Below are positions 1 through 59,085 of a DNA stretch of 64,000 nucleotides, piece after piece. Origin of the DNA: Mobula hypostoma (lineage: Eukaryota); the NCBI RefSeq assembly GCF_963921235.1, contig NC_086097.1:35156001-35220000 (forward strand). Reading direction: 5' to 3'. The notes under the pieces were generated by a model, which saw only the letters and a program-made list of their open reading frames with translations, made no database searches and was not told where the DNA came from. Position 1 is the stretch's first letter. Each line of letters starts with the position of its first letter. The position numbers and the translations under genes are program-made.

Positions 1-1030
1 GAAGGCAGAGGGTCATGGTGGAGGGAGTACATCCGGACTGGAGGGTTGTGACTAATGCTGTCCCACAAGGATCAGTTCTGGGACCTCTATTTTCGTGATT
101 TTTATTAACGACCTGGATGTGGGGGTAGAGGCGTGGGTTGGGAAAATTTGCAGACGACACAAAGGTTGGTGGTGTTGTAGATAGTGTAGAGGATTGTCGA
201 AGATTGCAGAGAGATATTGATAGGTTGCAGAAGTGGGCTGAGAAGTGGCAGATGGAGTTCAATCCGGAGAAGTGTGAGGTGGTACACTTTGGAAGGACAA
301 ACTCCAAGGCAGAGTACAAAGTAAATGACAGGATACTTGGTAGTGTGGAGGAGCAGAGGGATCTGGGGGTACATGTCCACAGATCCCTGAAAGTTGCTTC
401 ACAGGTAGATAGGGTAGTTAAGAAAGCTTATGTGGGGTTAGCTTTCATAAGTCGAGGGATAGAGTTTAAGAGTCATGAGGTAATGATGCAGTTCTATAAA
501 ACTCTGGTTAGGCCACACTTGGAGTACTGTGTCCATTTCTGGTCACCTCACTATAGGAAGGATGTGGAAGCATTGGAAAGGATACAGAGGAGATTTACCA
601 GAATGCACCTGGTTTAGAGAGTATCGATTATGATCAGAGATTAAGGGAGCTAGGGTTTTACTCTTTGGAGAGAAGGAGGATGAGAGGAGACATGATAGAG
701 GTGTACAAGATATTAAGAGGAATAGATAGAGTGGATAGCCAGCGCCTCTTCCCCAGGGCACCACTGCTCAATACAAGACGACATGGCTTTAAGGTAAGGG
801 GTGGGAAGTTCAAGGGGGATATTAGAGGAAGGTTTTTTACTCAGAGAGTGGTTGGTGCATGGAATGCACTGCCTGAGTCAGTAGTGGAGGCAGACACACT
901 AGTGAAATTTAAGAGAGTACTAGACAGGTATATGGAGGAATTTAAGGTGGGGGGTTATTTGGAAGGCAGGGTTTGAGGGTTGGCACAACAATGTGGGCTG
1001 AAGGGCCTGTACTGTGCTGTACTATTCTAT
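1..1030 (+). mobile_element. CR1 LINE, young subfamily: 3' part of ORF2 (RT) and 3' UTR; runs off the window start
   Basis: KFADDTK, LVRPHLEYCV, RFFTQRVVGAWNALP; frameshifted; same subfamily as 17861 and 48215 copies. Confidence 0.95.
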
Positions 1031-2404
1031 TTTATAATTAAACAGAGAGTTTAAATGTGCCACCAAAACTTCTGGTGTGGTTCATATTGGCCACTCAGTC
1101 TGGGGAAGGAAATGCATCGTGCTGCAATACTGGCACATGGCACTCATTGCAGACGACACTTCCATTCTGTGCTTTGCTTAGATAATATAAATGAAATCTT
1201 GTATTCTTCCAAGGATGTGAATAGAAAATCCCACAGCATTTGGTCAAAGACCTACTTTTAGGAAGAGTCCCAGAACATGGATGTTCTTGGTGTTAAGTAT
1301 TGTCACATGAGTGAATTTGTGTATGACATCTTTTTATTGGAACGAACACAGGGCTCATCATTGGCTGTACTTAGTAATAAGTATTATGTAATTTATGAGC
1401 TTAATAATGCACAAGAGTTTGAAGTTTAAGACTAAGAAATAATTTAGTGCACTTCCCAAATGCATGAATAATATACTGTTCTTTAAGAATGATAGAATTA
1501 GAAAAAGGTGTAAGCCTCCTGACTCTCTGAGCTTTGCCATCCATTCATCAGATCATGCCTGATCTTCAACTTCAGTCCTATTTTCGGTACTGTCCTCACA
1601 TCCCTTGATTCCTTTAGTATCTAGGTGTCACACATCTCTATTCTGAATTAATTCTATGACTTAACCTTTCAAACCCAACCACAAAATGGAGAAATTACTC
1701 CTCATTTCTATCCCAAAGTGGCCTACCCCCTACCCAGAAACTGTGACTACTGGATGTCGGAGTCAGGGTAAACATCCTCCATACATCCACCTCGTCACGC
1801 CCTTGTTAGAATTCTGTTAATTTTCCTGACACCATATCTTTCTTTATTCCCTTAACTAAGAACTCCAATGGATGAGTCAAATATGATTTCCTTTTCATAA
1901 GTCCATGCTATTTTCATAATTCTATTATTATATTGGAGGCACAAGAGATGCACTATCATGGTGCATGGTTTTGACCCAAAATAATCAACAATCCCTTTGT
2001 CTCCCCAGATGCCGTTTGACCTGCTGCATAGTTCCAGCAGTTTGCTTTTGCTCTGTTATTATATTCCGCATTATAGAGCCTAGCTTTTCTCTACTACTGA
2101 GATAGGTAACTAATCAGTCATCAATTCCCAGCTTTCCTTCTTCCTCCTTTCTTAAATAGTGAAATCAGCTTTGTTGCCTTCCAGGCTGCAAGAACCATTC
2201 CAGAATCTATAGTATTTAAAAGATGACAACTTTATAGACACTCTTCCCTAAATCCCCCTTTACAACAAAATTATTAATTAGAATTTTCTCACTGCACAGA
2301 AGGAAATACAATAGTGCCTTCTCATCAGTTTGATCTTTATCATTTTGATCTGGAAGACTATCTCACATTCCATTAATTCCTCTTCTATCTTATTATTGCT
2401 GACT

Positions 2405-5365: not shown

Positions 5366-5485
5366 CACTCTTCCTTCAGTTAGTCCTGACGAAGGGTCTC
5401 GGCCTGAAACGTCGACTGCACCTCTTCCTCCAGATGCTGCTTGGCCTGCTGCGTTCACCAGCAACTTTCATGTGTGTGGCCTGAA
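5366..5485 (+). mobile_element. Short 3'-terminal fragment of a Penelope-like element
   Basis: Nearly identical to about 55901-56020 of the longer Penelope copy. Confidence 0.85.
5381..5418 (+). ncRNA. Minimal type I hammerhead ribozyme motif
   Basis: UAGUC-CUGACGA-AGG(GUCUCGG)CCU-GAAA-CG-UC^GACUG: intact core, stems I and II, palindromic ACGU stem III; predicted cut after C5413. Confidence 0.8.
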
Positions 5486-8879: not shown

Positions 8880-9715
8880 CTGCCAATGCTGAAAATCCAG
8901 GGCAACACACACACCTAATGCTGGAGGAACTGAGCAGGTCAGGCATTCATCTGTGGAAATGAATAAACAGTCGACATTTCGGGCCACTACCCCTCTTCAG
9001 GACTGAAAAGGAAGGGGGAAGGCGTCAGAGTAAAACGTGGGGGGGAGTGGAAGGAGGCTTGCTGGAAGGTGACAGGTGAAGCCAGGTGGGTGGGAAAGGT
9101 AAAGGGCTGGAGAAGAAGGAATCTGATAGGAGAGGAAGGTGGACCATAGGAGAAAGGGAAGGAGGAGGGGATGCAGTGGGAAGTGACAGGATAAGAAGGG
9201 ATAAAAAAGCCAGAGTGGAGTATAGAAGAAGATGGAAGGGGGAGGGAAACATTTTTTAAATTGGAAGGAGAAATTGATATTCATGCAATCACGTTGGAGG
9301 CTACCAAGACGGAATATAAGGTGTTGCTCCCTATCCTGAGGGTGGCCTCCTCGTGGCAGAAGTAAAGGCTCTGGACCGACATGTCAGAATGGGAATGGGA
9401 ATTGGAATTAAAATGTTTGGCCACTGGGAAGTTCCACTTTTGGCGGATGGAGCAGAGTGCTCGACGAAGCGGTCTCCCCGTCTATGACGGGTCTCACCAA
9501 TGTAGAGGAAGCTGCACTGGGAGCTCTGGACACTATAGTCAACCCTAGCAGATCGGCAGGTGAAGTGTTGCCTCACCGGGGAGGACTGTTTGGGGCCCTG
9601 AATGGTGGTAAGGGAGGTGTACCGGCAGGTGTAGCACATAGGCTGCTTGCAGGGATAAGTGCCAGGAAGGAGATTATTGGAGAGGGATGAATGGACAAGG
9701 GGATCGCCGAGGGAG
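8880..9715 (-). mobile_element. Degraded Penelope-like retroelement (GIY-YIG region and 3' UTR)
   Basis: FLYIGETRHRRGDRFVEH on the minus strand; reverse-complement similarity to 55140-56040. Confidence 0.85.
8968..9005 (-). ncRNA. Minimal hammerhead ribozyme motif
   Basis: CAGUC-CUGAAGA-GGG(GUAGUGG)CCC-GAAA-UG-UC^GACUG; perfect 5-bp stem I; ACGU changed to AUGU (CpG decay). Confidence 0.72.
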
Positions 9716-10510: not shown

Positions 10511-10664
10511 TCTTAATAATTATGTTAATGCAAGGGTGCTGCAGAAAATACTTAAATAAATATTAATAGTAGACGATTATCTTAAATGTAGCTAAACAAA
10601 GCATTGAAGAATGGCACAAAGTATTACCCTATCCTGATTTGTAATTCTTTTCTTACATTTATAG

Positions 10665-10788
10665 AAACAAGTTTTTTACTTGGAAATGCTCAGATTGTAG
10701 ACTGGCCAGTAGTCTACAGTAATGATGGATTTTGCAAGTTGTCGGGATACCATCGGGCTGAAGTAATGCAGAAAAGCAGCACTTGCAG
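10665..10788 (+). CDS. KCNH5: KCNH5 (EAG2/Kv10.2) internal coding exon (exon 2 equivalent), PAS domain
   Basis: Translates (E)[40 protein letters not shown](S). Polypyrimidine tract and AG at 10663-10664, GT donor at 10789 (AG|gtaaac). 124 bp, phase 1 to 2. SFLL and WPVV favour KCNH5 over KCNH1 (NFVL, WPIV), from recalled sequences. Confidence 0.93.
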
Positions 10789-17665: not shown

Positions 17666-17860
17666 AACAGGGACAGCCTCAGAATAGATGTCCCTTTAGA
17701 ACAAAGATGAGGAGGTATTTCTTAGTCAGAAGGTGGTGAATTCATTGCCAGAGATGGCTGTGGAAGCCAAGTCATTGAGTATAATTAAAGCAGAGGTTGA
17801 TAGGTTCTTGATTAGAAAGAACAACAAACATTGTGGGAAGAAGGCAGGAGAATGGGGTTA

Positions 17861-19341
17861 ATAGAACATAGAACATAGATTAGTACAGCACGTTACAGGC
17901 CCTTCAGCCCACAATGTTGTGCCGACCCTCAAACCCTGCCTGCCATATAAGCCCCCATCTTAAATTCCTCCATATACCTGTCTAGTAGTCTCTTAAACTT
18001 CACTAGTGTATCTGCTTCCACCACTGACTCAGGCAGTGCATTCTACGCACCAACCACTCTCTGAGTAAAAAACCTTCCTCTAATATTCCCCTTGAACTTC
18101 CCACCCCTTACCTTAAAGCCATGTCGTCTTGTATTGAGCAGTGGTGCCCTGGGGAAGAGGCGCTGGCTATCCACTCTATCTATTCCTCTTATTATCTTGT
18201 ACACCTCTGTCATGTCTCCTCTCATCCTCCTTCTCTCCAAAGAGTAAAGCCCTAGCTCCCTTAATCTCTGATCATAATCCATACTCTCCAAACCAGGCAG
18301 CATCCTGGTAAATCTTCTCTGTACCCTTTCCAATGCTTCCACGTCCTTCCTATAGTGAGGTGACCAGAACTGGACACAGTACTCCAAGTGTGGCCTAACC
18401 AGAGGTTTACAGAGCTGCATCATTACATCACGACTCTTAAACTCTATCCCTCGACTTATGAGAGCTAACACCCCATAAGCTTTCTTAACTACCCTATCTA
18501 CCTGTGAGGCAACTTTCAGGGATCTGTGGACATGTACCCCCAGATCCCTCTGCTCCTCCACACTACCAAGTATCCTGCCATTTACTTTGTAATCTGCCTT
18601 GGAGTTTGTCCTTCCAAAGTGTACCACCTCACACTTCTCCGGGTTGAACTCCATCTGCCATTTCTCTGCCCACTTCTGTATCCTATCAATGTCTCTCTGC
18701 AATCTTCAACAATCCTCTACACTACCTACAACACCACCAACCTTTGTGTCATCTGCAAATTTGCCAACCCACCCTTCTACCCCCACATCCAGGTCGTTAA
18801 TAAAAATCACGAAAATAGAGGTCCCAGAACTGATCCTTGTGGGACACCACTAGTCACAAACCTCCAATCTGAATGTACTCCCTCCACCACGACCCTCTGC
18901 CTTCTGCAGGCAAGCCAATTCTGAATCCACCTGGCCAAACTTCCCTGGATCCCATGCCTTCTGACTTTCTGAATAAGCCTACTGTGTGGAACCTTGTCAA
19001 ATGCCTTACTAAAATCCATATAGATCACATCCACTGCACTACCCTCATCTATATGCCTGGTCACCTCCTCAAAGAACTCTATCAGGCTTGTTAGACACGA
19101 TCTGCTCTTCACAAAGCCATGCTGACTGTCCCTGATCAGACCATGATTCTCTAAATGCCCAGAGATCGTATCTCTAAGAACCTTTTCCAACAGCTTTCCC
19201 ACCACAGACATAAGGCTCACTGGTCTATAATTACCCGGACTATCCCTACTACCTTTTTTGAACAAGGGGACAACATTTGCCTCCCTCCAATCCTCCGGTA
19301 CCATTCCCGTGGACAACAAGGACATAAAGATCCTAGCCAGA
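17861..19341 (-). mobile_element. Young 5'-truncated CR1 LINE nested in an older + strand CR1 tail (17666-17860 + 19350-19427)
   Basis: RT motifs YMDFSKAFDKVPH, GVPQGSVLGP; (atagaac)n tail. Confidence 0.95.
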
Positions 19342-31699: not shown

Positions 31700-32490
31700 T
31701 CAGGCCATTCTCTCTTCTTGCTGCTGCCATTGGGAGGGAGGTACAGGAACCTTAGGTCCCACACTACCAGGTTCAGGAACAGTTATTACTCTTCAGCAGA
31801 CAGGCTCCTGAACCAGTGTGAATAACCTCACTCACCTCACCACTGAACTGATTCCATAAACTATGGACTCAGTGTCAAGAATTCTACAATTTGTGTTCTC
31901 TGTATTATTTATTTATGAATTATTATTATTATAAGTAGTATTTACACAGTTTGTTTTCTTTTGCACATTGGTTGTTTGTCAGTCTGTGTGTATAGTTTTT
32001 CATTGATTCTATTGTATTTATTCTACTGTGAGTGCCCGCAAGAAATGTCAGAGCTGGGGAGCAGCCAATACCTGCCAAAAGAACATCTGCAGGCATTCTG
32101 AACTCTGCAAGGGACTGGCAGCTGTTGGTGGACCTCGAACGGCAGCTGAAGTTCCCCAACCATATCGCAGCCACCACCCTGCGACCAGACATTGTCCTAG
32201 TGTCTGAGCCTACTAAGCAAGTGGTGCTGCTGGAGCTGACAGTCCCATGGGAAGATCGCTTGGAAGAGGCCTTTGAAAGGAAGCTCTCCAAGTACACAGG
32301 ACTGGTCAGCAACTGTCAGCAGGCCGGATGGAGAGCGAGGTGTCTCCCAGTGGAGGTTGGATGTAGGGGATTCACAGCCCGTTCCTTAGCCAGAGCATTC
32401 AGCATTTTGGGCATCGAGGGAGAGAGGAAGAGGTATATGGTGACATACAGTATACATACTTTGATAACAAAGTTGCTCCAAGTTTTGAAC
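31700..32490 (+). mobile_element. Rex1/Babar-type 3' tail containing a 388-bp HERO-derived insert (32046-32433)
   Basis: Tail matches 27430-27760 and 52960-53320. Confidence 0.8.
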
Positions 32491-32789
32491 ATTGAGCTTG
32501 CATCTCCATTCTCACCATTACTTTAACCTAATGAAGCACTAGAGGCCAAAGGAAATTTGTCTAAGGATTATACTGAGAGGCTAAGGGAAATCTGATAAAT
32601 TTGTGAAAATCGAAGGGCTTATATACTTGTGCACAAAGTGTGATAGTTATATGTCAAGTCTGGTAACTGGAGATTAAGGCAACACATATTGAGAATGTGG
32701 TTTCAATTTCACCATGGCATTTTGTCAGCTTGCATTCATTTTTGAGTAACTAGGGTGAAACCCCTAGCTTCAGTGGAAAACAGCCGTGC

Positions 32790-35365
32790 TGTGTACATAC
32801 ATCTATTGATGCTCCTGGACACATCTTCAGTGATGTTCCTAGAATCATCGGGTGTTTTGGGTCTTTCAACATCATACAACCGCCTCCAGGTGACCCAGCC
32901 GGGGCTGATCAGACCCCAGCTTGTGTCCAGATGGCTAGCTACTTATGACTCCATGGCTCCCCTCTTTTGAGCCACAGCCATCTTGAGGCCCTCTCTGCCG
33001 CATCAGTGGTACTGTGGTTGGCTCTCCTCTTCCTCTCTCCCTCGTTGCCCAAAATGCTGAATGCTCTGGCTAAGGAATGGGCTGTGAATCCCCTACATCC
33101 AACCTCCACTGGGAGACACCTCGCTCTCCATCCAGCCTGCTGACAGTTGCTGACCAGTCCTGCGTACTTGGAGAGCTTCCTTTCAAAGGCCTCTTCCAAG
33201 CTATCTTCCCATGGGACTGTCAGCTCCAGCAGCACCACTTGCTTAGTAGGCTCAGACACTAGGACAATGTCTGGTCGCAGGGTGGTGGCTGCGATATGGT
33301 TGGGGAACTTCAGCTGCCGTTCGAGGTCCACCAACAGCTGCCAGTTCCTTGCAGAGGTCAGAATGCCTGCAGATGTTCTTTTGGCAGGTATTGGCTGCTC
33401 CCCAGCTCTGACAAAGGCAATGGTCTGCTTAGAGGGTCGGGTCCGCTTCGCCCACTCAACTCCTGCGCTGACGGCTTCAGCGATGGTCTTCAGGACCTGA
33501 TCATGCTTCCATCTGTACCGTCCCTCACCAAGTGCCCTTGCACAGCAGCTGAGGATGTGCTCCAGGGTTCCTCGCTTGGAGCACAGTGGGCACGCAGATG
33601 ACTCTGCCTTGCCCCATGTGTGCAGGTTTGATGGGCTTGGAAGCACATCATACACTGCCTGGATGAGAAATTGGATGCGGTGTGGTTCGGCTTTCCAAAG
33701 ATCAGCCCAGGTCACTTTCCTCTCAACTGCATTCTCCCATCTTGTCCAAGCTCCCTGTTGCTTCATTCCCACCGCCTTGCAGGCTCTCATCTCCTACACT
33801 ACTGCTCTCACCTCCTCCTGAACTAGACGACGCGTTTCCTTCCCTCTGGTGTCCATTTGGGGAGTTGGAAAGGATCCTAGCCCAGCTCGGCCTCGTGTGA
33901 CCATTCCCACCAGCCTCCTGTGACACAGCCTCGCCTCTGCCTCCTGAACAGCTTCCTCTGCCCTCCACTTCCTGCCAGTACTCACTTGGATCCCTGCTCT
34001 AGCCACCTTCGGGTCACTTGAGTCCCTATACTGTAGCACTCCTCAGGCTCTTGTTACCTTGAATTCTTCCCCCAAGGATTTGAAGGGCAGTTGCAGTTTG
34101 TTGTGGTGTCCATAGAGTGCGATGCTGCTCAGGCTCTTTGGCAGCCCCAGCCATCTCCTGAGGTGGTTGCTAACCCTCCTCTCTAAGGTTTCGACTGTCG
34201 AGATTGGAACTGCATAGACGAGGAGGGGCCACAGGATTCTGGGAAGAATGCCATGCTGATACACCCAGGCTTTAAACTTCCCAGGTAGGCCAGACTTGTC
34301 CACAGATTTCAGCCAGCCATCCAACTCGGTTCAGGTCTCCTGAACGGATGTCATGTCCCTTAAAGAGCTGTCAAAAACTTTGCCTAAGCTCTTGACTGGC
34401 TTTTCTGTGATGGTTGGGATGGCTGTGCCTGCGATGCTGAACCGGATCTTGTTCTCCACCTTCCCTTTCCTCAGCACCATCGATCTTGATTTGGCAGGTT
34501 TGAAACGCATCTGGGCCCACTCCACCAGCTTTTCGAGCCCTTGCAGAATCCTCCGGCAGCCTGGGACTGATTCTGTGGTGACTGTGAGGTCGTCCATGAA
34601 TGCCCTGATAGGTGGTTGCTGTTGAGCGGAATTCATTCTGGGCCCTCTGCATTCTGGTTCAGCAGACTTAGTGAGCACGTTCATGGCTAGGGAGAACAGT
34701 GTCACTGAGATAGTGCACCCTGTAATGATGCCAAACTCCACCTTGTGCCAGGTTGATGTAATTGCTCCTGAAGAGACCCTCGTCCTGAAATTGCTGTAAT
34801 AATCAGCGATAAGGTCTCTGATTCTGCGGGGGACGTGATATTTGGTCAGTGTGAGCTGCACCAGCTTGTGCGGAATGGAACCATATGCATTTGCAGGTCG
34901 AGCCACAACACTGACAGGTTGCCCTTGTTCTCTCTGGCCTCCTTGATGAGCTGTGTCACCACACTGGTATGTTCCAGACAGCCCAGCATCCCTGAAATGC
35001 CACCTTCTGGACTGATGTATCAATATAGGTGTTCTGTGCTAGGTAGGTGTACAGCCGGTTGGAAACTGCACTGAAGAAGATCTTCGCCTCGACACACAGC
35101 AAGGAGATGATGCGACACTGATCTATCTGGGTGGCATTTTCCTCCTTTGGGATCCACACCCCTTCAGCCACTCTCCACTGTTCTGGGATCTTCCCCTTTC
35201 TCCAGAAGATTCTCAGGATCTTCCACAGACGCAGCAGGAGTTTGGGGCAGTTCCTGTACACTTTGTACGAGGTGTTGCTTGGTCCTGGAGCCGAGCTTGC
35301 CCTTGCTTTGCGGACGACCTCTCTTACTTCCTTTAGTTGCAGCTCTGAGATGTCGAACTGCACAT
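32790..35365 (-). mobile_element. HERO/NeSL-type (R2 superfamily) non-LTR retrotransposon, 5'-truncated, with several stops and frameshifts
   Basis: RT ANAYGSIPH, GIITGCTIS, AFMDDL; knuckle CPLC..EHILSCC; restriction-like endonuclease RPDIVL..LLELTVPWE..ERKLSKY. Confidence 0.9.
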
Positions 35366-39341: not shown

Positions 39342-39393
39342 AAAATGTAGGAGAAACTCAGCAGGTCAGGCAGCATCTGTGGAAATGAATAGC

Positions 39394-39431
39394 TAGTCGA
39401 CATTTCGGGCCGAGACCCGTCTTCAGGACTG
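39394..39431 (-). ncRNA. Minimal hammerhead ribozyme motif in a Penelope tail
   Basis: CAGUC-CUGAAGA-CGGGUCUCGGCCC-GAAA-UG-UC^GACUA. Confidence 0.65.
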
Positions 39432-40534
39432 GAAAGGAAGGGGGAAGATACCAGAACAGAAACTTTTGCTCATCTTAGCTAAATTTACAACATCTCAAAA
39501 GGCCATAACATCTTCCACCCTGAAGGAAGTGTATTGCGACAATAACCTCGCAAGGGGGATATATTTTAACAAGAAGTGGGTCCTTTAGCAACTAGTAAGC
39601 TCCTTATTTCTCAGCTACCTTGAAGGTTCTCAGGAGCTGTAAAGTAACATACCTGTTGATGCACATTATACTTCAACCATAAATAAAGTTGTGGAATGGT
39701 AGTTTTTAAACCATTGAATAATATAGCATGCAACTTAGAGAGGAAAATCACTGTCTGCAGGTTCATACCCAAACTGTCCTGACACAGATGCATTGTATTG
39801 TTCTTTCAGCATTACCTGGACTCAATAGTGGAACTCTCTACCAGAGAGCTCTGAGGGAGAATGTTCATCACGTTTCATGTTCATCTTTGTTCAGGCTCCA
39901 TGGGTTAATTAGAAATGGACAGTATAAGTGTTCATGGGTTTATGGACCGTTCAGAAATTTGGTGGCGAAGGGAAGAAGCTGTCTTCAGGCTCCTGTACCT
40001 CCTTCCTGATGGTAGTAAGGAGAAGAGGCCATGCTCTTGGTGGTGGGGTCCTTAATGATCGATGCAAATCGCGTAAAAGTCACTCCTTAACAACAATGCT
40101 GAAAACATTAGTAATAAATGTAAAATTAATCAAAGCCACAGGGATAATGCCAGACTTAATTTGAACCTTATTTCTTTTGTGAAAATTGTAGGTAACATCT
40201 ACAGATGATGTCTTATTTTTGCATTAGTTTGGAAAGACCTGATTAAATTGGGTAGTAAATGAAAGTAAGTAAATCAGATCTGTTTTGCACCAGCATTTCT
40301 TCCGGTTCCATTTCTGAATGAAGCATTGTTAGTCGGATAAAACACAAACATTTCATGCAGAGTGACAGCATGATTTATGAGTAGAGTATATTAAAGCAAG
40401 TTCTCAGCTACAAAAACCCATGCATTGAAATCGTGAGGCTATTGTGTGTATCATTAACAATAAAAATGTTAAAGATTACACCTCCATTTTCTCTTTGGTC
40501 AATATCAATTTAACTGGTTTCAATATGTTGAATA

Positions 40535-48214: not shown

Positions 48215-50918
48215 TAGAACATAGAACATAGAATAGTACAGCACAGTACAGGCCCTTCGGTCCACAATGTTGTGCCGACCCTCAAACCCTGCCTCCCATA
48301 TAAGCCCCCACCTTAAATTCCTCCATATACCTCTCTAGTAGTCTCTTAAATCTCACTAGTGTATCTGCCTCCACCACTGACTAAGGCAGTGCATTCCACA
48401 CACCAACCACTCTCTGAGTAAAAAACCTTCCTCTAATATCCCCCGTGAACTTCCCACCCCTTACCTTAAAGCCATGTCCTCTTGTACTGAGCAGTGGTGC
48501 CCTGGGGAAGAGGCGCTGGCTATCCACTCTATCTATTCCTCTTAATGTCTTGTATATCTCTATCATGTCTCCTATCATACTCCTTCTCTCCAAAGAGTAA
48601 AGCCCGAGCTCCCTTAATCTCTGATCATAATGCATACTTTCTAAACCAGGCAGCATCCTGGTAAATCTCCTCTGTACCCTTTCCAATGCTTCCACATCCT
48701 TCCTATAGTGAGGTGACCAGAACTGGACGCAGTATTCCAAGTGTGGCCTAACCAGAGTTTTATAGACTCTTAAACTCTATCCCTCGACTTATGAAAGCTA
48801 ACACTCCATAAGCTTTCTTAACTACTCTATCCACCTGTGAGGCAACTTTCAGGGATCTGTGGACATGTACCCTGAGATCCCTCTGCTCCTCCACACTACC
48901 AAGTATCCTGCCATTTACTTTGTACTCTGCCTTGGAGTTTGTCCCTCCAAAGTGTACCACCTCACACTTCTCCGGGTTGAACTCCATCTGCCACTTCTGA
49001 GCCCACTTCTGCATCCTATCAATGTCTCTCTGCAATCTTTGACAATCCTCTACACTATCTACAACACCACCAACCTTTGTGTCACCTGCAAACTTGCCAA
49101 CCCACCCTTCTACCCCCACATCCAGGTCGTTAATAAAAATCACGAAAATAGAGGTCCCAGAACTGATCCTTGTGGGACACCACTAGTCACAATCCTCCAA
49201 TCTGAATGTACTCCCTCTACCACGACCCTCTGCCTTCTGCAGGCAAGCCAATTCTGAATCCACCTGGCCAAACTTCCCTGGATCCCATGCCTTCTAACTT
49301 TCTGAATAAGCCTACCGTGTGGAGCCTTGTCAAATGCCTTACTAAAATCCATATAGATCACATCCACTGCATTACCCTCATCTATATGCCTGGTCACCTC
49401 CTCAAAGAACTCTATCAGGCTTGTTAGACACGATCTGCCCTTCACAAAGCCATGCTGACTGTCCCTGATCAGACCATGATTCTCTAAATGCCTATAGATC
49501 CTATCTCTAAGAATCTTTTCCAACAGCTTTCCCACCACAGACATAAGGCTCACTGGTCTATAATTACCTGGACTATCCCTACTACCTTGTTTGAACAAGG
49601 GGACAACGTTCGCCTCCCTCCAATCCTCCGGTACCATTCCCGTGGACAATGAGGACATAAAGATCCTAGCCAGAGGCTCAGCAATCTCTTCTCTCGCCTC
49701 GTGGAACAGCCTGGGGAATATTCCGTCAGGCCCCGGGGACTTAGCCATCCTAATGTATTTTAACAACTCCAACACCTCCTCTCCCTTAATATCAACATGC
49801 TCCAGAACATCAACCTCACTCATATTGTCCTCACCATCATCAAGTTCCCTCTCATTGGTGAATACCAAAGAGAAGTATTCATTGAGGACTTCGCTCACTT
49901 CCACAGCCTCCAGGCACATCTTCCCACCTTTATCTCTAATCTGTCCTACCTTCATTCCTGCCATCCTTTTTTTCTTCACATAATTGAAGAATGCCTTGGG
50001 GTTTTCCTTTACCCTACTCGCCAAGGCCTTCTCATGCCCCCTTCTTGCTCTTCTCAGCCCCTTCTTAAGCTCCTTTCTTGCTTCCCTATATTCCTCAATA
50101 GACCCATCTGATCCTTGCTTCCTAAACCTCATGTATGCTGCCTTCTTCCACCTGACTAGATTTTCCACCTCACTTGTCACCCATGGTTCCTTCACCCTAC
50201 CATTCTTTATCTTCCTCACCAGGACAAATTTATCCCTAACATCCCACAAGAGATCTCTAAACATCGACCACATATCCATAGTATATTTCCCTGAAAAAAC
50301 ATCATCCCAATTCACACCCGCAAGTTCTAGCCTTATAGCCTCATAATTTGCCTCTTCCCAATTAAAAATTTTCCTGTCCTCTCTGATTCTATCCTTTTCC
50401 ATGATAATGCTAAAGGCCAGGGAGCGGTGGTCAGTGTCCCCCAGATGCTTACCCATTGAGAGATCTGTGACCTGACCCGGTTCATTACCTAGTACTAGAT
50501 CTAGTATGGCATTCCCCCTTGTTGGCCTGTCCACATGCTGTGACAGGAATCCATCCTGGACACACTTAACAAACTCTGCCCCATCCAAACCCTTGGAACT
50601 AATTAGGTGCCAATCAATATTAGGGAAGTTAAAGTCACCCATGATAACAACCCTGTTATATTTGCACCTTTCCAAAATCTGCCTCCCAATCTGCTCCTTT
50701 GTATCTCTGCTGCTACCAGGGGGCCTATAGAATACCCCCAGAAGAGTAACTGCTCCCTTCCTGTTCCTGACTTCCACCCATACTGACTCAAAAGAGGATC
50801 CTGCTACATTACCCACCCTTTCTGTAGCTGTAGTAGTATCCCTGACCAGTAATGCCTCCCCTCCTCCTCTTTTTCCGCCCTCTCTATCCCTTTTAAAGCA
50901 CTGAAATCCAGGAATATT
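48215..50918 (-). mobile_element. Young CR1 LINE (endonuclease + RT, 5'-truncated) with a 7-bp TSD
   Basis: 558-aa open frame (GVFYRPP, MGDFNFP, ILDLV, DFSKAFD); TSD gagactt at 48208-14 and 50919-25. Confidence 0.96.
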
Positions 50919-53915: not shown

Positions 53916-54726
53916 GTAAGTAATGATAATTCTATTATAAATCCATTAATTTATAACTGTTCTTGGGATGATTATAAGGGCTGATAAAATAGTTCCACTA
54001 ATTATTGAGCTGTCATTTTTCTAAAATGTAACGTCCTCTTAAATGCTTTTGACTGCACAAGATCTCCTCTATGACGGGAGATCTCCTTTAATCCACGAAG
54101 ATGTGTCCATTCCTTACTGTGATTTAATTCTGTACTCATTAACCCAGATGGAAGGAACATTTGTTAATTGAGCAGAGATATTCCGCTTTATCAATACCTT
54201 CAGCACCATCGTCAATGAACATTTATTACCTATTTAGTCAATGCTCATTTGAGTGCCCTGGCACATCAACTCTGTCTATCAAGGAGCCCTGTGCTCACTT
54301 AGATTTTCTGCAATTTTAATTTGTGATAGAATCTCAGAGATCCCAAGCTCTACCCGGAGTAGAGTATAATCAAATAAAGTGGGACAACTCATGTATTAGA
54401 TTTTTCTTGAAGGGGGTTTGCATTCACAAGCTGGATCAAATTACAGAGTCTGAATTATTTTGTATCTGTATGCTGGAAATTTTGATTTACTGATCAACTT
54501 GTTCTAAGTATACTGTGGAATGATACTGTAGAACTGTTTACATATGAGTGGGTTTGGAAAGAGAATGATAGTTTTGAAATAGTTTTAATTGTAATATGCT
54601 CATTTTGTTAAAATAAAAACAACAAAGGAAAAAAAGTCAAAAATTAATTGGCTAAGATACCTTAATTTTGACTTTTATGAAGCAAACTTTTTAGAATACT
54701 GAAAGAAATGACATATTGTTCATTCA

Positions 54727-56042
54727 CCCTGTCTCTTGCACTGACTCTCACAGCTATCTGGACTATTCCTCTTCTCACCCTGTCTCTTGCAAAAACGCCA
54801 TCCCCTTCTCGCAATTCCTCCGTCTCCGCCGCATCTGCTCTCAGGATGAGGCTTTTCATTCTAGGACGAGGGAGATGTCTTCCTTTTTTAAAGAAAGGGG
54901 CTTCCCTTCCTCCACTATCAACTCTGCTCTTAAACGCATCTCCCCCATTTCACGTACATCTGCTTTCACTCCATCCTCCCGTCACCCCACTAGGAATAGG
55001 GTTCCCCTGGTCCTCACCTACCACCCCACCAGCCTCCGGGTCCAACATATTATTCTCCGTAACTTCCGCCACCTCCAACGGGATCCCACCACTAAGTACA
55101 TCTTTCCCTCCCCCCCCACCCTGATTTCCGCAGGGATCGCTCCCTATGCAACTCCCTTGTCCATTCGTCCCCCCCATCCCTCCCCACTGATCTCCCTCCT
55201 GGCACTTATCCGTGTAAGCAGAACAAGTGCTATACATGCCCTTACACTTCCTCCCTTACCACCATTCAGGGCCCCAAACAGTCCTTCCAGGTAAGGCAAC
55301 ACTTCACCTGTGAGTTGACTGGGGTGATATACTGCGTCCGGTGCTCCCGATGTGGCCTTTTATATATTGGCGAGACCCGACGCAGATTGGGAGACCGCTT
55401 TGCTGAACATCTACGCTCTGTCTGCCAGAGAAAGCAGGATCTCCCAGTGGCCACACATTTTAATTCCACATCCCATTCCCATTCTGACATGTCTATCCAC
55501 GGCCTCCTCTACTGTAAAGATGAAGCCACACTCAGGCTGGAGGAACAACACCTTATATTCCGTCTGGGTAGCCTCCAACCTGATGGCATGAACATCGACT
55601 TCTCTAACTTCCGCTAAGGCCCCACCTCCCCCTCGTACCCCATCTGTTACTTATTTTTATACACACATTCTTTCTCTCACTCTACTTTTTCTCCCTCTGT
55701 CCCTCTGAATATACCTCTTGCCCATCCTCTGGGTCCTCCCCCCCCCCACCTGTCTTTCTTCCCGGACCTCCTGTCCCATGATCCTCTCGTATCCCCTTTT
55801 GCCTATCACCTGTCCAGCTCTTGGCTCCATCCCTCCCCCTCCTGTCTTCTCCTATCAGTTTGGATCTCCCCCTCCCCCTCCAACTTGCAAATCCCTTACT
55901 CACTCTTCCTTCAGTTAGTCCTGATGAAGGGTCTCGGCCTGAAACGTCGACTGCACCTCTTCCTAGAGATGCTGCCTGGCCTGCTGCGTTCACCAGCAAC
56001 TTTGATGTGTGTTGCTTGAATTTCCAGCATCTGCAGAATTCC
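54727..56042 (+). mobile_element. Penelope-like retroelement, 5'-truncated (RT thumb, GIY-YIG endonuclease, 3' UTR)
   Basis: YLDYSSSHP..SQFLRLRRICS; VIYCVRC..LYIGET..HFN..EQHLI..GMN; frameshift in a C run near 55110-55121; 10-bp TSD tgttcattca (54717-26 and 56043-52). Confidence 0.93.
55916..55953 (+). ncRNA. Minimal type I hammerhead ribozyme motif
   Basis: UAGUC-CUGAUGA-AGG(GUCUCGG)CCU-GAAA-CG-UC^GACUG; predicted cut after C55948. Confidence 0.82.
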
Positions 56043-56689
56043 TGTTCATTCAGCTGACTTTCTGGAATCTTAAATATTAAGACATAAAAACTGAAAATCC
56101 AATTGTTTTGGATGGGGAGAGACATTAGTTAGTGATAATACATGATTTATTTTAGCCTGCCCAATGGATTTTTACTTGGAACACAGAGATGAAACTAAGC
56201 TCCTTAGCACATGGTTTTGGTATGCTATGAGAGAAATAGAAATTTTTTAGAATGAAATTGTAAAGTCAATGGATTAAGGTCTTTATAGGTAAAATAATCT
56301 GGGCTATTGATTGCCGGATGTCTTTCATTTTCTTCCTGCATTTAAACCCAGCTAACAGCGGAAAATACATTTCAGCTAAAATGTTTTTTAATTTTTTTTA
56401 AATTTCTAGCAATGACATCTTTTTAAAATTATTTGAATTTATTCAAACTCATCATGATAAAGAAGGTGATGAGTGCAAATTTCCGTGATGGTATGTCCTT
56501 GTTATCACTGATCTATTTCTCCCCCTGCATTGCCAGAGTGCATTGAAATTCTTGACGATCCAAAGTGATAAATGAAATTGGGTAAAGTTACGCTTTGGTG
56601 GCGTGAGGTGTCTGGGGGGAGTTTGGGCTGGCAAGAGCATGAGAGGAGCATGTTTATATCATCTGCAGCTCTGTAACACTAATGTTTCT

Positions 56690-57230
56690 GTTGACATTAA
56701 TGGTGTTGAAGTTTGGAGGGTTGAGAGTTTTGAGTGCCTAGGTGTGAACATCACCAACGTCCGTCCTGCTCCAACCACATTGATGTCACTGGTAGAAAAC
56801 CTCACAAACACCCCTACTTCCTCAGGAGGCTAAAGAAATACAGCATGCCCCCATTTACTCTTACCGATTTGTGTGAATGTGCCATGGACAGTATTCTGTC
56901 CAGATGCATAACAGCAAGTGCACTACACATAGCAGCAAGAAACTGCAGAGTTGTGGACTTAGCTTAGCACGTCACGGGAACTAGACTGTCCTCTAAGGAC
57001 TATATCTTGCTGCCTCAGTAAAGCAGCCAGCATAATCAAAGACACCACCTACTGCAGACACTCTCTCTTCTCCCTTTCCCACTGGGCAGAAGATACGACA
57101 GCCTGGAAGCACGTAGCACCAGGATCAAGGATAGTTTCTATCCCTCTGTCAATCGTCTCTTGAATGGACCGCTTGTATGATAAGATGGGCTCGTGGCCTC
57201 ATAATCTACCTCATTATGATCTTGCACTTT
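56690..57230 (+). mobile_element. Degraded Rex1/Babar-type fragment
   Basis: FECLGVNIT, YFLRRLKK. Confidence 0.65.
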
Positions 57231-57231
57231 A

Positions 57232-58530
57232 TCATAGAACATAAAATGTAGAACAGTACAGCACAGGAACTGGCCCTTTGGCTTACAGTGTTGTGCCAAG
57301 CCAAGTAAATTAGTAATCAAATAGCCAACTAAACTAATCTCTTCTGACTACACGATGTCCATATATTTCCATTTTCCTCACATCTATACGCCTATCTAAA
57401 CATCTCGTAAAAGTCCCTAATGTTTCTGTCTCTACCGCCACCCCAGGCACCCACCACCACCACACTGTGTGTGTGTGAGTGTGTGTGTGTGGTGTGTGTG
57501 TGTGTGTGTGTGTGAGTGTGTGTGTGTGGTGTGTGTGTGTGTGAGTGTGTGTGTGTGTGTGTGTGTAAAAAAAAAAAAAAAAACTCCTTTGAAATTACCC
57601 CCTCCCACCTTACATATATTCCTTCTGGTATTAGATATTTTGACCCTGGGAAAAAGATACTTTCTGTCTACTATGTTTGCCTCTCATAATTTATCAGATC
57701 TCCTCTCAGTCTCTGCTGCTCCAGAGAAAACAGCCCAAGCTTGTCCAAACCCTCGTTTTAGCATTTATCCTCTAATCCAGACAGGGGTGCAATGCTAGCC
57801 AGAGCACACCGGAGCTAAAAAAACATCCAGTGAGAGGATTTAACACGATGTTTTCACTCACAGAACAGCCACTCGCCGGATTTTGTTTTTGTTTTTGGCA
57901 TCATTCTTTGTAAACTCCAGAGTCTGATGTGCGTTTATATAAAAAAAAATCCCAGGAGAACAGCACTTTCTGAGATACTCAAATCACCCTGGGCAACACC
58001 TAATTAATTAGCTTGTTTATTTTGGCTTTTTTCTTAAAGATGAGCTCCGGTTAGCACTGCGCCCCTGAATCCAGGCAGCATCCTGGTAAACTTGTTTTGA
58101 TCCCCCTCCAAAGCCTGTACATCGTTCCTATAATGGAACCAACCAGAAATGTATGCAATACTCAATCCAGACTGAATCCAAACAGACAATTCCCCAGCAA
58201 TCTCTTCTCTTGCCTCTCTCAATAACCTGGGGTATATCCAATCAGATTCTAGGGACTTATCCACATGAATGCTCTTTTAACAGACCTAACATTACCTTGT
58301 CCTTTATCTCGAAATGCCCTATCATATCAATATGCTCAGCACTGATCTCCCAGTCCTCCACGTCCTTCTCCTTGGAAAATACTGGTGTAAAGTACTCATT
58401 AAGTACTTGTAAGCTACCCACATCCTCCACGTTCAAGCAAATGTTCGCCCTTTACCCTTGGGTGGTCCTACCTTCTGCCTAATACAGTAATCCTCTTGTT
58501 CCTGCTGTATGTAGAGAATGTTGTTTTCCT
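57232..58530 (-). mobile_element. Patchwork of old CR1 fragments containing a (TG)n tract and a Tc1-MITE-like piece
   Basis: atagaacata..cagcacaggaac tail; FTRMLPG; IYPRLLREAREEIAG. Confidence 0.6.
57466..57566. repeat. Imperfect (TG)n microsatellite followed by an A run
   Basis: Directly visible. Confidence 0.97.
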
Positions 58531-58891: not shown

Positions 58892-59085
58892 CAGCAGGCC
58901 AGACAGCATCTATGCAAAAGAGTAAATATTCAACATTTCTGGTTGTGGCTGTGACCCCTAATGAAGGGCCTTGTCCTGAAACGTTGACTGTACTCTTTTC
59001 TATAGATGCTGCCTGGCCTGTTGAGTTCCTCCAGCATCTTGGGTGTGTTGCTTTGGATTTCCCGCATCTGCAGGTTTTCTCTTGT
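58888..59085. mobile_element. Head-to-head pair of Penelope 3'-end fragments with a decayed hammerhead
   Basis: 58888-58939 is the reverse complement of about 58978-59028. Confidence 0.75.

What the first reader, a model, noticed from the sequence alone, without database searches (positions are those of the whole stretch)
55916..55953. Intact sense-strand hammerhead ribozyme in a Penelope 3' UTR, 2 kb downstream of KCNH5 exon 3
Seen: full core CUGAUGA...GAAA...UC, stem I (UAGUC/GACUG), stem II (AGG/CCU) and a stem III reduced to the palindrome ACGU, inside a young TSD-flanked element. Established: Penelope-like elements carry minimal type I hammerheads that are proposed to cleave as dimers, so the class itself is known. 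Inference: it is transcribed within the KCNH5 pre-mRNA and could cut it after C55948.
Basis: partly seen in the sequence, partly recalled or inferred. Interest (0 to 1): 0.75.

Follow-up and report, generated by a model that had tools for sequence, protein, structure and literature searches.

The report
Penelope hammerhead passenger in KCNH5 intron
The miniature self-cutting RNA motif is really there in an intron of the KCNH5 gene, but it is one of about 85,000 near-identical copies spread through this genome by a known kind of jumping gene, and this lone copy is predicted to be unable to cut the host RNA to any useful extent, so it is ordinary.

Summary
Observation confirmed, with one correction. 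55916-55953 holds a full minimal type I hammerhead core with a predicted cut after C55948. It lies in the 3' pLTR of a 1.3-kb, 5'-truncated Penelope-like element (Neptune-type linker plus GIY-YIG) with a 10-nt target-site duplication, sense to KCNH5, 2.0 kb into the 19-kb intron 3. Stem II is more likely GGGU/GCCU with a bulged A than AGG/CCU. The claim that it cuts the pre-mRNA is not supported. The genome holds 84,856 copies differing only at CpGs (2,008 identical). KCNH5 alone carries 9 intact sense copies. In seven KCNH-family genes, intact motifs are not depleted on the sense strand (12 sense, 14 antisense; low power). One contig from another organism shows the site empty. Published minimal hammerheads of this class cut only as dimers and slowly; the nearest sense neighbour (3 kb) has a broken core and the nearest intact one is 37 kb away. 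No usable raw RNA reads were found, so cutting in vivo is untested. The scan noted this motif class 21 times before in other genomes. Verdict: new member of a known kind, low interest.

The parts
55916..55953 (+). Minimal type I hammerhead motif (all core bases present)
   Evidence: Sequence; descriptor 2 in the window, 0 in 200 shuffles; 2,008 identical copies in the genome
55916..55920 (+). Stem I, 5' strand (pairs with 55949-55953)
   Evidence: Sequence; paired in the minimum-energy fold of the 38-mer
55921..55927 (+). Core C3-A9 (CUGAUGA); U7 where the dominant family form has C7
55928..55940 (+). Unpaired A, then stem II (55929-55932 with 55937-55940, 4-nt loop); closing pair 10.1-11.1 is G-U
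   Evidence: layout as in PMC4209133
55941..55948 (+). G12-A15.1, the palindrome ACGU that replaces helix III, and U16.1-C17; predicted cut between 55948 and 55949
   Evidence: Sequence; the cut site is inferred from hammerhead numbering, not observed
54727..56042 (+). 5'-truncated Penelope-like element (Neptune-type), 1,316 nt
   Evidence: relatives 88-96% identical over most of its length
54717..54726 (+). Target-site duplication, left copy (10 nt)
   Evidence: single copy at the empty site in run X20
56043..56052 (+). Target-site duplication, right copy
54740..55617 (+). ORF remnant: end of the reverse transcriptase region, Cys linker (CPC-x4-C-x2-C), GIY-YIG endonuclease, stop at 55615-55617; one frameshift near 55110
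   Evidence: Translation; Pfam GIY-YIG E 1.8e-4, just under the curated cut-off; a longer sister copy (L102) adds RVT_1, E 1.6e-5, also under cut-off
55618..56042 (+). pLTR (3' non-coding repeat) holding the hammerhead and ending in the roughly 30-nt tail that many sister copies lack
   Evidence: Two classes of 3' end among L001-L040, near element positions 1281-1299 and 1314-1316; tail as described in PMC11167929 and PMC8557442
53809..53915 (+). KCNH5 exon 3 (host gene); intron 3 runs to G000:C1:35229054, 19.1 kb in all
58953..58990 (+). Nearest same-strand relative, 3,037 nt downstream: A at core position 5, unmatched stem I 5' strand, U at position 17
5381..5418 (+). Second intact sense copy in the window (KCNH5 intron 1), identical to the dominant family form

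Best explanation
This is the hammerhead motif in the 3' repeat (pLTR) of a 5'-truncated Penelope-like retrotransposon that inserted into KCNH5 intron 3, and as a lone copy it is likely a passenger that does not cut the KCNH5 pre-mRNA to any extent that matters. Shown: the motif, the element, its boundaries, its copy number, and an empty site in another organism. Inferred from the literature: in active, tandem elements two such motifs would pair through their ACGU palindromes to build the missing helix III, and each would cut the other, slowly, to process the element's RNA. Inferred here: this copy has no competent partner on the nascent RNA while intron 3 exists, folds otherwise, and the host is likely a ray.
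For: At least 84,856 copies with only CpG differences, 29,805 of one exact form, 2,008 identical to this one. KCNH5 holds 22 sense copies (9 intact) and 23 antisense (6 intact); over 7 gene spans (1.32 Mb) 57 sense and 55 antisense, intact 12 and 14, Fisher p 0.66. Nearest intact sense copies lie 37.2 kb downstream and 50.5 kb upstream; the 3-kb neighbour has A at position 5. The double-hammerhead pairing scores -11.5 kcal/mol against -18.4 for two misfolded monomers and -26.7 for the best alternative duplex, and stems I and II have pairing probability 0.000 in a 238-nt context. A contig of run X20 runs from the left flank straight into the right flank (35 of 35, then 29 of 30 letters). Literature: a single minimal motif gave no detectable cleavage and dimers low activity (PMC4209133); no RNA-seq reads ended at the cut site of the anole element (PMC11167929); introns cut by a slower hammerhead were still spliced (as reported in PMC2995048).
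Against: Nothing here measures cleavage. The core is complete and the ACGU palindrome intact. Folding energies ignore tertiary contacts and proteins, and a single anole pLTR RNA did cleave in vitro at 500 nM (PMC11167929). Among copies within 4 mismatches, sense is lower than antisense (17 against 29, p 0.10), a weak hint of selection, though intact copies alone are 10 and 12. The orientation test is small, and head-to-head pairs are not independent. Family sequence is abundant in three runs guessed to be RNA, so partners in trans may exist. Xenopus retrozymes are reported as under-represented in introns (bioRxiv 10.64898/2026.07.22.740005). The empty site rests on one contig.
Confidence: 0.88

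Rival explanations
1. The motif is cut at a low rate in vivo, by pairing in trans with another element RNA or in cis with another intronic copy, but the cut is harmless because splicing goes on across a slowly cut intron.
For: Intact core and palindrome; 29,805 copies of a compatible form; family sequence abundant in runs guessed to be RNA; PLE hammerheads cleave as dimers (PMC4209133; PMC6765202); splicing survives slow intron cleavage (PMC2995048).
Against: Dimer pairing is short (5+4+5 bp) and less stable than alternative folds; rates are very low even for tandem dimers (PMC6765202); 1 of 9 Xenopus dimer elements cleaved in vitro; the runs are contigs and cannot show ends or strand.
Confidence: 0.08
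2. One reading: the motif cuts the KCNH5 pre-mRNA after C55948 often enough to change KCNH5 output, as a regulatory or deleterious intronic ribozyme.
For: Sense orientation, 2 kb after exon 3, complete core; conserved intronic hammerheads exist in amniotes (PMC6155905) and the RECK one silences a reporter from a 3' UTR (PMC10761166); a fast ribozyme in an intron can block splicing (as reported in PMC2995048).
Against: Not conserved at this site; no helix III and G-U at 10.1-11.1; eight more intact sense copies in the same gene and no sense depletion; no partner within 37 kb.
Confidence: 0.03
3. The motif no longer works as a ribozyme even in the active elements of this subfamily and is carried along as part of the pLTR, for example as a protein-binding or structural signal.
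For: The dominant exact form has U at 11.1 (29,805 against 4,395 with C); hammerhead mutants did not impair insertion by the anole element in vitro (PMC11167929); Naiad elements spread without canonical hammerheads (PMC8557442).
Against: The majority base at every core position across 128 copies of several subfamilies is the canonical one, while position 7 varies between U, C and A, which points to selection on the core in source elements. This rival concerns the family and is compatible with the best explanation for this copy.
Confidence: 0.15

Closest known systems
Minimal hammerheads (min-HHR) in pLTRs of metazoan Penelope-like elements, including fish Xena, Poseidon and Neptune (Cervera and De la Pena 2014, PMC4209133)
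   Same: Type I topology, 5-bp helix I, unpaired base between 9 and 10.1, no helix III, palindromic 15.2-16.2, mostly single dispersed copies from truncated elements
   Different: Helix II is 4 bp (7-8 bp in the Schistosoma families); 10.1-11.1 is G-U in the dominant form, not G-C; copy number (at least 84,856) is about ten times the roughly 9,000 reported for Xenopus tropicalis; cartilaginous fishes are not named in the parts read
Neptune-type EN+ Penelope-like elements (clades as set out in PMC8557442)
   Same: [quoted passage not shown]
   Different: This copy has no inverted or tandem partner and lacks the RT core; clade placement rests on the linker motif, no tree against named references was built, and Nematis shares the linker
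PAc (Poseidon of Anolis carolinensis) hammerhead (PMC11167929)
   Same: pLTR hammerhead with stems I and II; two classes of 3' end in genomic copies
   Different: PAc was shown to cleave in vitro; its ORF starts within the ribozyme; other clade
Conserved intronic hammerheads of amniotes (RECK, C10orf118; PMC6155905, PMC10761166)
   Same: Type I hammerhead in an intron of a vertebrate gene
   Different: Those are conserved across species, have tertiary contacts and, for RECK, silence a reporter in cells; this one is part of a high-copy repeat, is absent from the orthologous site of another organism, and lacks helix III
Non-LTR retrozymes of animals (bioRxiv 10.64898/2026.07.22.740005)
   Same: Type I hammerhead related to PLE pLTRs
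   Different: Retrozymes are non-coding tandem units; this motif is single and follows 880 nt of the element's ORF

Membership tests
min-HHR of metazoan PLEs | Core C3-U4-G5-A6-N7-G8-A9, G12-A13-A14-A15.1, U16.1-H17 | tested here: met
min-HHR of metazoan PLEs | Type I topology with 4-5 bp helix I closing the motif | tested here: met
   5 bp including one U-G
min-HHR of metazoan PLEs | No helix III; palindromic 15.2-16.2 | tested here: met
   ACGU at 55944-55947
min-HHR of metazoan PLEs | Unpaired base between positions 9 and 10.1 | tested here: met
   A55928; register favoured by energy and by the C/U variation at 55940
min-HHR of metazoan PLEs | G10.1-C11.1 pair (described as highly conserved, not as required) | tested here: inconclusive
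   G-U in this copy and in the dominant form; G-C in 4,395 exact copies of a sister form and C in 49 of 128 local copies
min-HHR of metazoan PLEs | Located in the pLTR of a PLE | tested here: met
   299 nt after the GIY-YIG stop, 89 nt before the element's end
min-HHR of metazoan PLEs | Self-cleavage as a dimer | not testable with these tools
   Needs an assay; folding energies disfavour it for this copy
EN+ Penelope-like element, Neptune/Nematis type | Single ORF with RT then C-terminal GIY-YIG | tested here: met
   GIY-YIG E 1.8e-4 here; RVT_1 plus GIY-YIG in the 576-aa open stretch of sister copy L102, 96% identical in DNA over the shared part; both Pfam scores are below the curated cut-offs; relatives carry PF00078, PF26215, PF28514
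EN+ Penelope-like element, Neptune/Nematis type | CX2-5CxxC Zn-finger-like linker between RT and EN | tested here: met
   C-x4-C-x2-C in the translation; motif as given in PMC8557442
EN+ Penelope-like element, Neptune/Nematis type | pLTR, inverted 5'-truncated partners, optional 30-40 nt tail | tested here: met
   Inverted pieces and two classes of 3' end among L001-L040
EN+ Penelope-like element, Neptune/Nematis type | RT phylogeny placing it in Neptune | not tested
   No named reference RTs were in hand
Conserved intronic hammerheads (RECK type) | Conserved at the orthologous intron position across species | tested here: not met
   Empty site in run X20, one contig
Conserved intronic hammerheads (RECK type) | Canonical fold recognised by Rfam hammerhead models | tested here: not met
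   No hammerhead hit
Non-LTR retrozyme | Tandem non-coding units, at least two with complete hammerheads | tested here: not met
   Single motif behind an ORF remnant; nearest intact sense copy 37 kb away

The most novel reading that the evidence does not exclude
A ray-like genome carries some 85,000 minimal hammerheads, about half of the intronic ones on the sense strand, so nascent pre-mRNAs (nine intact sites in KCNH5 alone) could be cut in trans by abundant Penelope RNAs through the shared ACGU palindrome: a genome-wide, repeat-guided intron-cutting load. The most successful subfamily carries G-U in place of G-C at 10.1-11.1, which could be an attenuation that let it spread into genes.
Probability: 0.06. 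Interest if true: 0.6.

Novelty: new member of a known kind. Interest (0 to 1): 0.1.

Why it matters
As it stands, little: it adds a cartilaginous-fish example, at unusually high copy number, to a class described in 2014. If lone intronic copies were cut in vivo, it would show that Penelope hammerheads act on host transcripts and would give a handle on their still unclear function; this genome, with tens of thousands of identical intact and dead copies, would be a good place to test that.

Tried and rejected
Rfam scans of 54000-58000 and 55850-56020 found no hammerhead family; the other weak hits are far below their gathering scores. My first idea, that U at 11.1 is CpG decay of this copy, was rejected: it is the state of the dominant form (29,805 against 4,395). 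A CpG-asymmetry test for selection was inconclusive: on the dominant background C7-to-U has 2,008 copies and G8-to-A 1,271, and over all backgrounds 12,185 and 5,080; dead copies are not enriched, but U7 sister subfamilies confound the ratio. RNA evidence: no RNA holder listed; the runs laid are contigs whose cover falls on the repeat and comes from the whole family, so they show neither ends nor strand; X2, X3 and X13 gave no cover of exon 3 and its flank, which proves nothing. Monomer folds are no more stable than shuffles (z -0.3 to -0.8). No full-length element was found in about 1.45 Mb scanned; the longest open stretch was 576 aa. Lunse, Weinberg and Breaker (PMC5785218) is not held, so its rate data could not be compared.

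Full report
Observation. The motif is at 55916-55953 on the + strand as described: a 5-bp stem I, the core CUGAUGA, a short stem II, GAAA, the palindrome ACGU in place of helix III, and U-C at 55947-55948, which puts the predicted cut between 55948 and 55949. It is not chance: my minimal descriptor matches twice in the window (this copy and 5381-5418) and never in 200 shuffles. One correction: stem II is better read as 55929-55932 with 55937-55940, leaving A55928 unpaired. That hairpin is more stable (-2.3 against -1.1 kcal/mol), is the one in the minimum-energy fold, accommodates the C seen at 55940 in 49 of 128 relatives, and matches the unpaired base between positions 9 and 10.1 that PMC4209133 lists as a family trait. 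The closing pair is then G-U where that paper reports a highly conserved G-C. Rfam has no hammerhead match here.

The element. The motif lies in a 1,316-nt insertion, 54727-56042, between two copies of a 10-nt target site. It carries the 3' part of one ORF with a single frameshift near 55110: the end of the reverse transcriptase region, a Cys linker and a GIY-YIG domain (Pfam E 1.8e-4, 22.2 bits against a cut-off of 22.6). A sister copy (L102; 96% identical over 1,278 nt) has a 576-aa open stretch with RVT_1 and GIY-YIG, both under their cut-offs. Its closest database relatives are proteins of the rays Mobula and Hypanus (77-94% identity over parts), so the host is likely a ray. Among the 40 loci fetched, copies share the 3' end, are variably 5'-truncated, often have an inverted partner, and end at one of two places about 30 nt apart. 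These are the traits of EN+ Penelope-like elements, and the CX2-5CxxC linker points to Neptune or Nematis (PMC8557442). I built no tree.

The host gene. The exon at 53809-53915 matches human KCNH5 best. With a shark KCNH5 protein (P0040) as query, exon 1 maps 40 kb upstream of the window, exon 2 at about 10662-10786, exon 4 at G000:C1:35229055 and the last exon at C1:35594786. Intron 3 is 19.1 kb and the motif starts 2,001 nt into it, sense to the gene. That it is transcribed with the pre-mRNA follows from this position; it was not observed.

Copy number. Exact genome counts: this 38-mer 2,008; the dominant form, with C at position 7, 29,805; a form with C at both 7 and 11.1, 4,395; all forms of a 34-nt core that differ only at CpG sites, 84,856, split evenly between strands. 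That is 24 per Mb, not counting older subfamilies.

Is there a sign that sense copies harm genes? I fetched seven KCNH-family gene spans of known strand (1,317,358 nt; for genes other than KCNH5 the span runs from the first to the last exon hit) and collected ungapped matches within 10 mismatches of the 38-mer: 128 in all, of which 16 outside the spans were dropped. Of the 112 left, 57 are sense and 55 antisense. By my own criterion for intact (full core, C17, Watson-Crick palindrome, at least 4 of 5 and 3 of 4 pairs in stems I and II) 12 are sense and 14 antisense (Fisher p 0.66). KCNH5 has 9 intact sense copies of 22 and 6 intact antisense of 23. Against my reading: within 4 mismatches, sense is 17 and antisense 29 (p 0.10), though intact copies there are 10 and 12. 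The test is small and head-to-head pairs are counted as two. A CpG test was inconclusive.

Is the site conserved? In run X20, from another organism whose flanking intron differs at 34 of about 608 letters plus 5 gaps, one contig matches 54692-54726 exactly and goes on with 30 shown letters that match 56053 onward at 29. The site is empty there, with one copy of the target sequence. This is a single contig, but it confirms the boundary and shows the insertion is lineage-specific or polymorphic, unlike the conserved intronic hammerheads of amniotes (PMC6155905).

Mechanism. From PMC4209133 and PMC6765202: these motifs lack helix III and are thought to work when two copies pair through the palindrome; a single motif showed no cleavage and dimers low activity. 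By the geometry of that dimer (my inference), the site at C55948 must be cut by a partner's core and stem I strand. The only same-strand relative in intron 3, 3,037 nt downstream, has A at position 5 (the usual inactivating change, recalled) and a stem I strand that does not match. The nearest intact sense copies are 37.2 kb downstream and 50.5 kb upstream, in other introns. The dimer fold scores -11.5 kcal/mol against -18.4 for two misfolded monomers and -26.7 for the best alternative duplex, and in 238 nt of context neither stem is predicted; these figures omit tertiary contacts and proteins. For the anole element, the ribozyme cut in vitro but was not needed for insertion and no RNA-seq reads ended at its site (PMC11167929). 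Even a cut need not matter: introns cut by a slower hammerhead were still spliced, while a fast HDV ribozyme blocked splicing (as reported in PMC2995048). Best reading: a passenger (0.88). Rare harmless cutting 0.08; a real effect on KCNH5 0.03.

Novelty. The class is known since 2014, including fish Neptune elements and thousands of lone copies per genome. One search for 'hammerhead', 'Penelope' and 'elasmobranch' together found no paper. The library lacks most subscription journals, so this is weak evidence that the cartilaginous-fish case is unreported. A preprint reports retrozymes in one chondrichthyan genome. Earlier notes of this scan describe the same motif class in 21 findings from at least 15 genomes; I did not check their loci, and my reading was set before seeing them.

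What I read. PMC4209133: parts 1-2 of 4 of the text (abstract, results, discussion, part of methods). PMC11167929: part 1 of 4 and passages. PMC6765202, PMC8557442, PMC2995048, PMC6155905, PMC10761166 and bioRxiv 10.64898/2026.07.22.740005: passages only. Lunse, Weinberg and Breaker: title in a reference list only (not held). No supplements were read; the alignments in those of PMC4209133, and the Lunse paper, may already include shark or ray motifs and rates for G-U variants. Hammerhead numbering and the effects of G5A and G8A are recalled.

Verdict. Real feature, new member of a known kind, interest 0.10.

Noticed in passing
G000 genome-wide: The dominant exact form (29,805 copies) has G-U at 10.1-11.1, outnumbering the canonical G-C form (4,395) about 7 to 1 on an otherwise identical background; possibly an attenuated ribozyme in the most successful subfamily.
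   Followed up: partly
window 58953-58990: The neighbour with the broken core keeps ACGU and the stem I 3' strand, so in principle the 55916 copy could act as enzyme on it (site after U58985, a GUU triplet, recalled as a poor substrate).
   Followed up: partly
window 54727-54739: The first 13 nt of the insertion repeat 54778-54790, with a 3-nt match to the end of the target site; looks like a short template switch at the 5' junction.
   Followed up: no
window 8963-9715 (- strand), 39389-39436 (- strand): Older, antisense relatives of the same element type; both keep the core bases but have lost the palindrome.
   Followed up: partly
L030/L031, L035/L036, L014, L040; G000:C1:35249070-35249162: Many insertions are head-to-head pairs with one hammerhead on each strand, so such insertions put a sense copy in an intron whichever way they land.
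   Followed up: partly
proteins P0122, P0124: Annotated isoforms of ray host genes (a divergent protein kinase domain 1C, a chitinase domain-containing protein 1) include long stretches 77-87% identical to this element's ORF: exonisation or annotation artefacts.
   Followed up: no
window 32046-33413: 388-nt inverted repeat, 98% complementary, 592 nt apart, in KCNH5 intron 2; may be a young DNA transposon or fold-back element.
   Followed up: no
window 1-1036, 17857-18904, 48215-49237: Three copies of another roughly 1-kb repeat at 93-95% identity, in both orientations.
   Followed up: no
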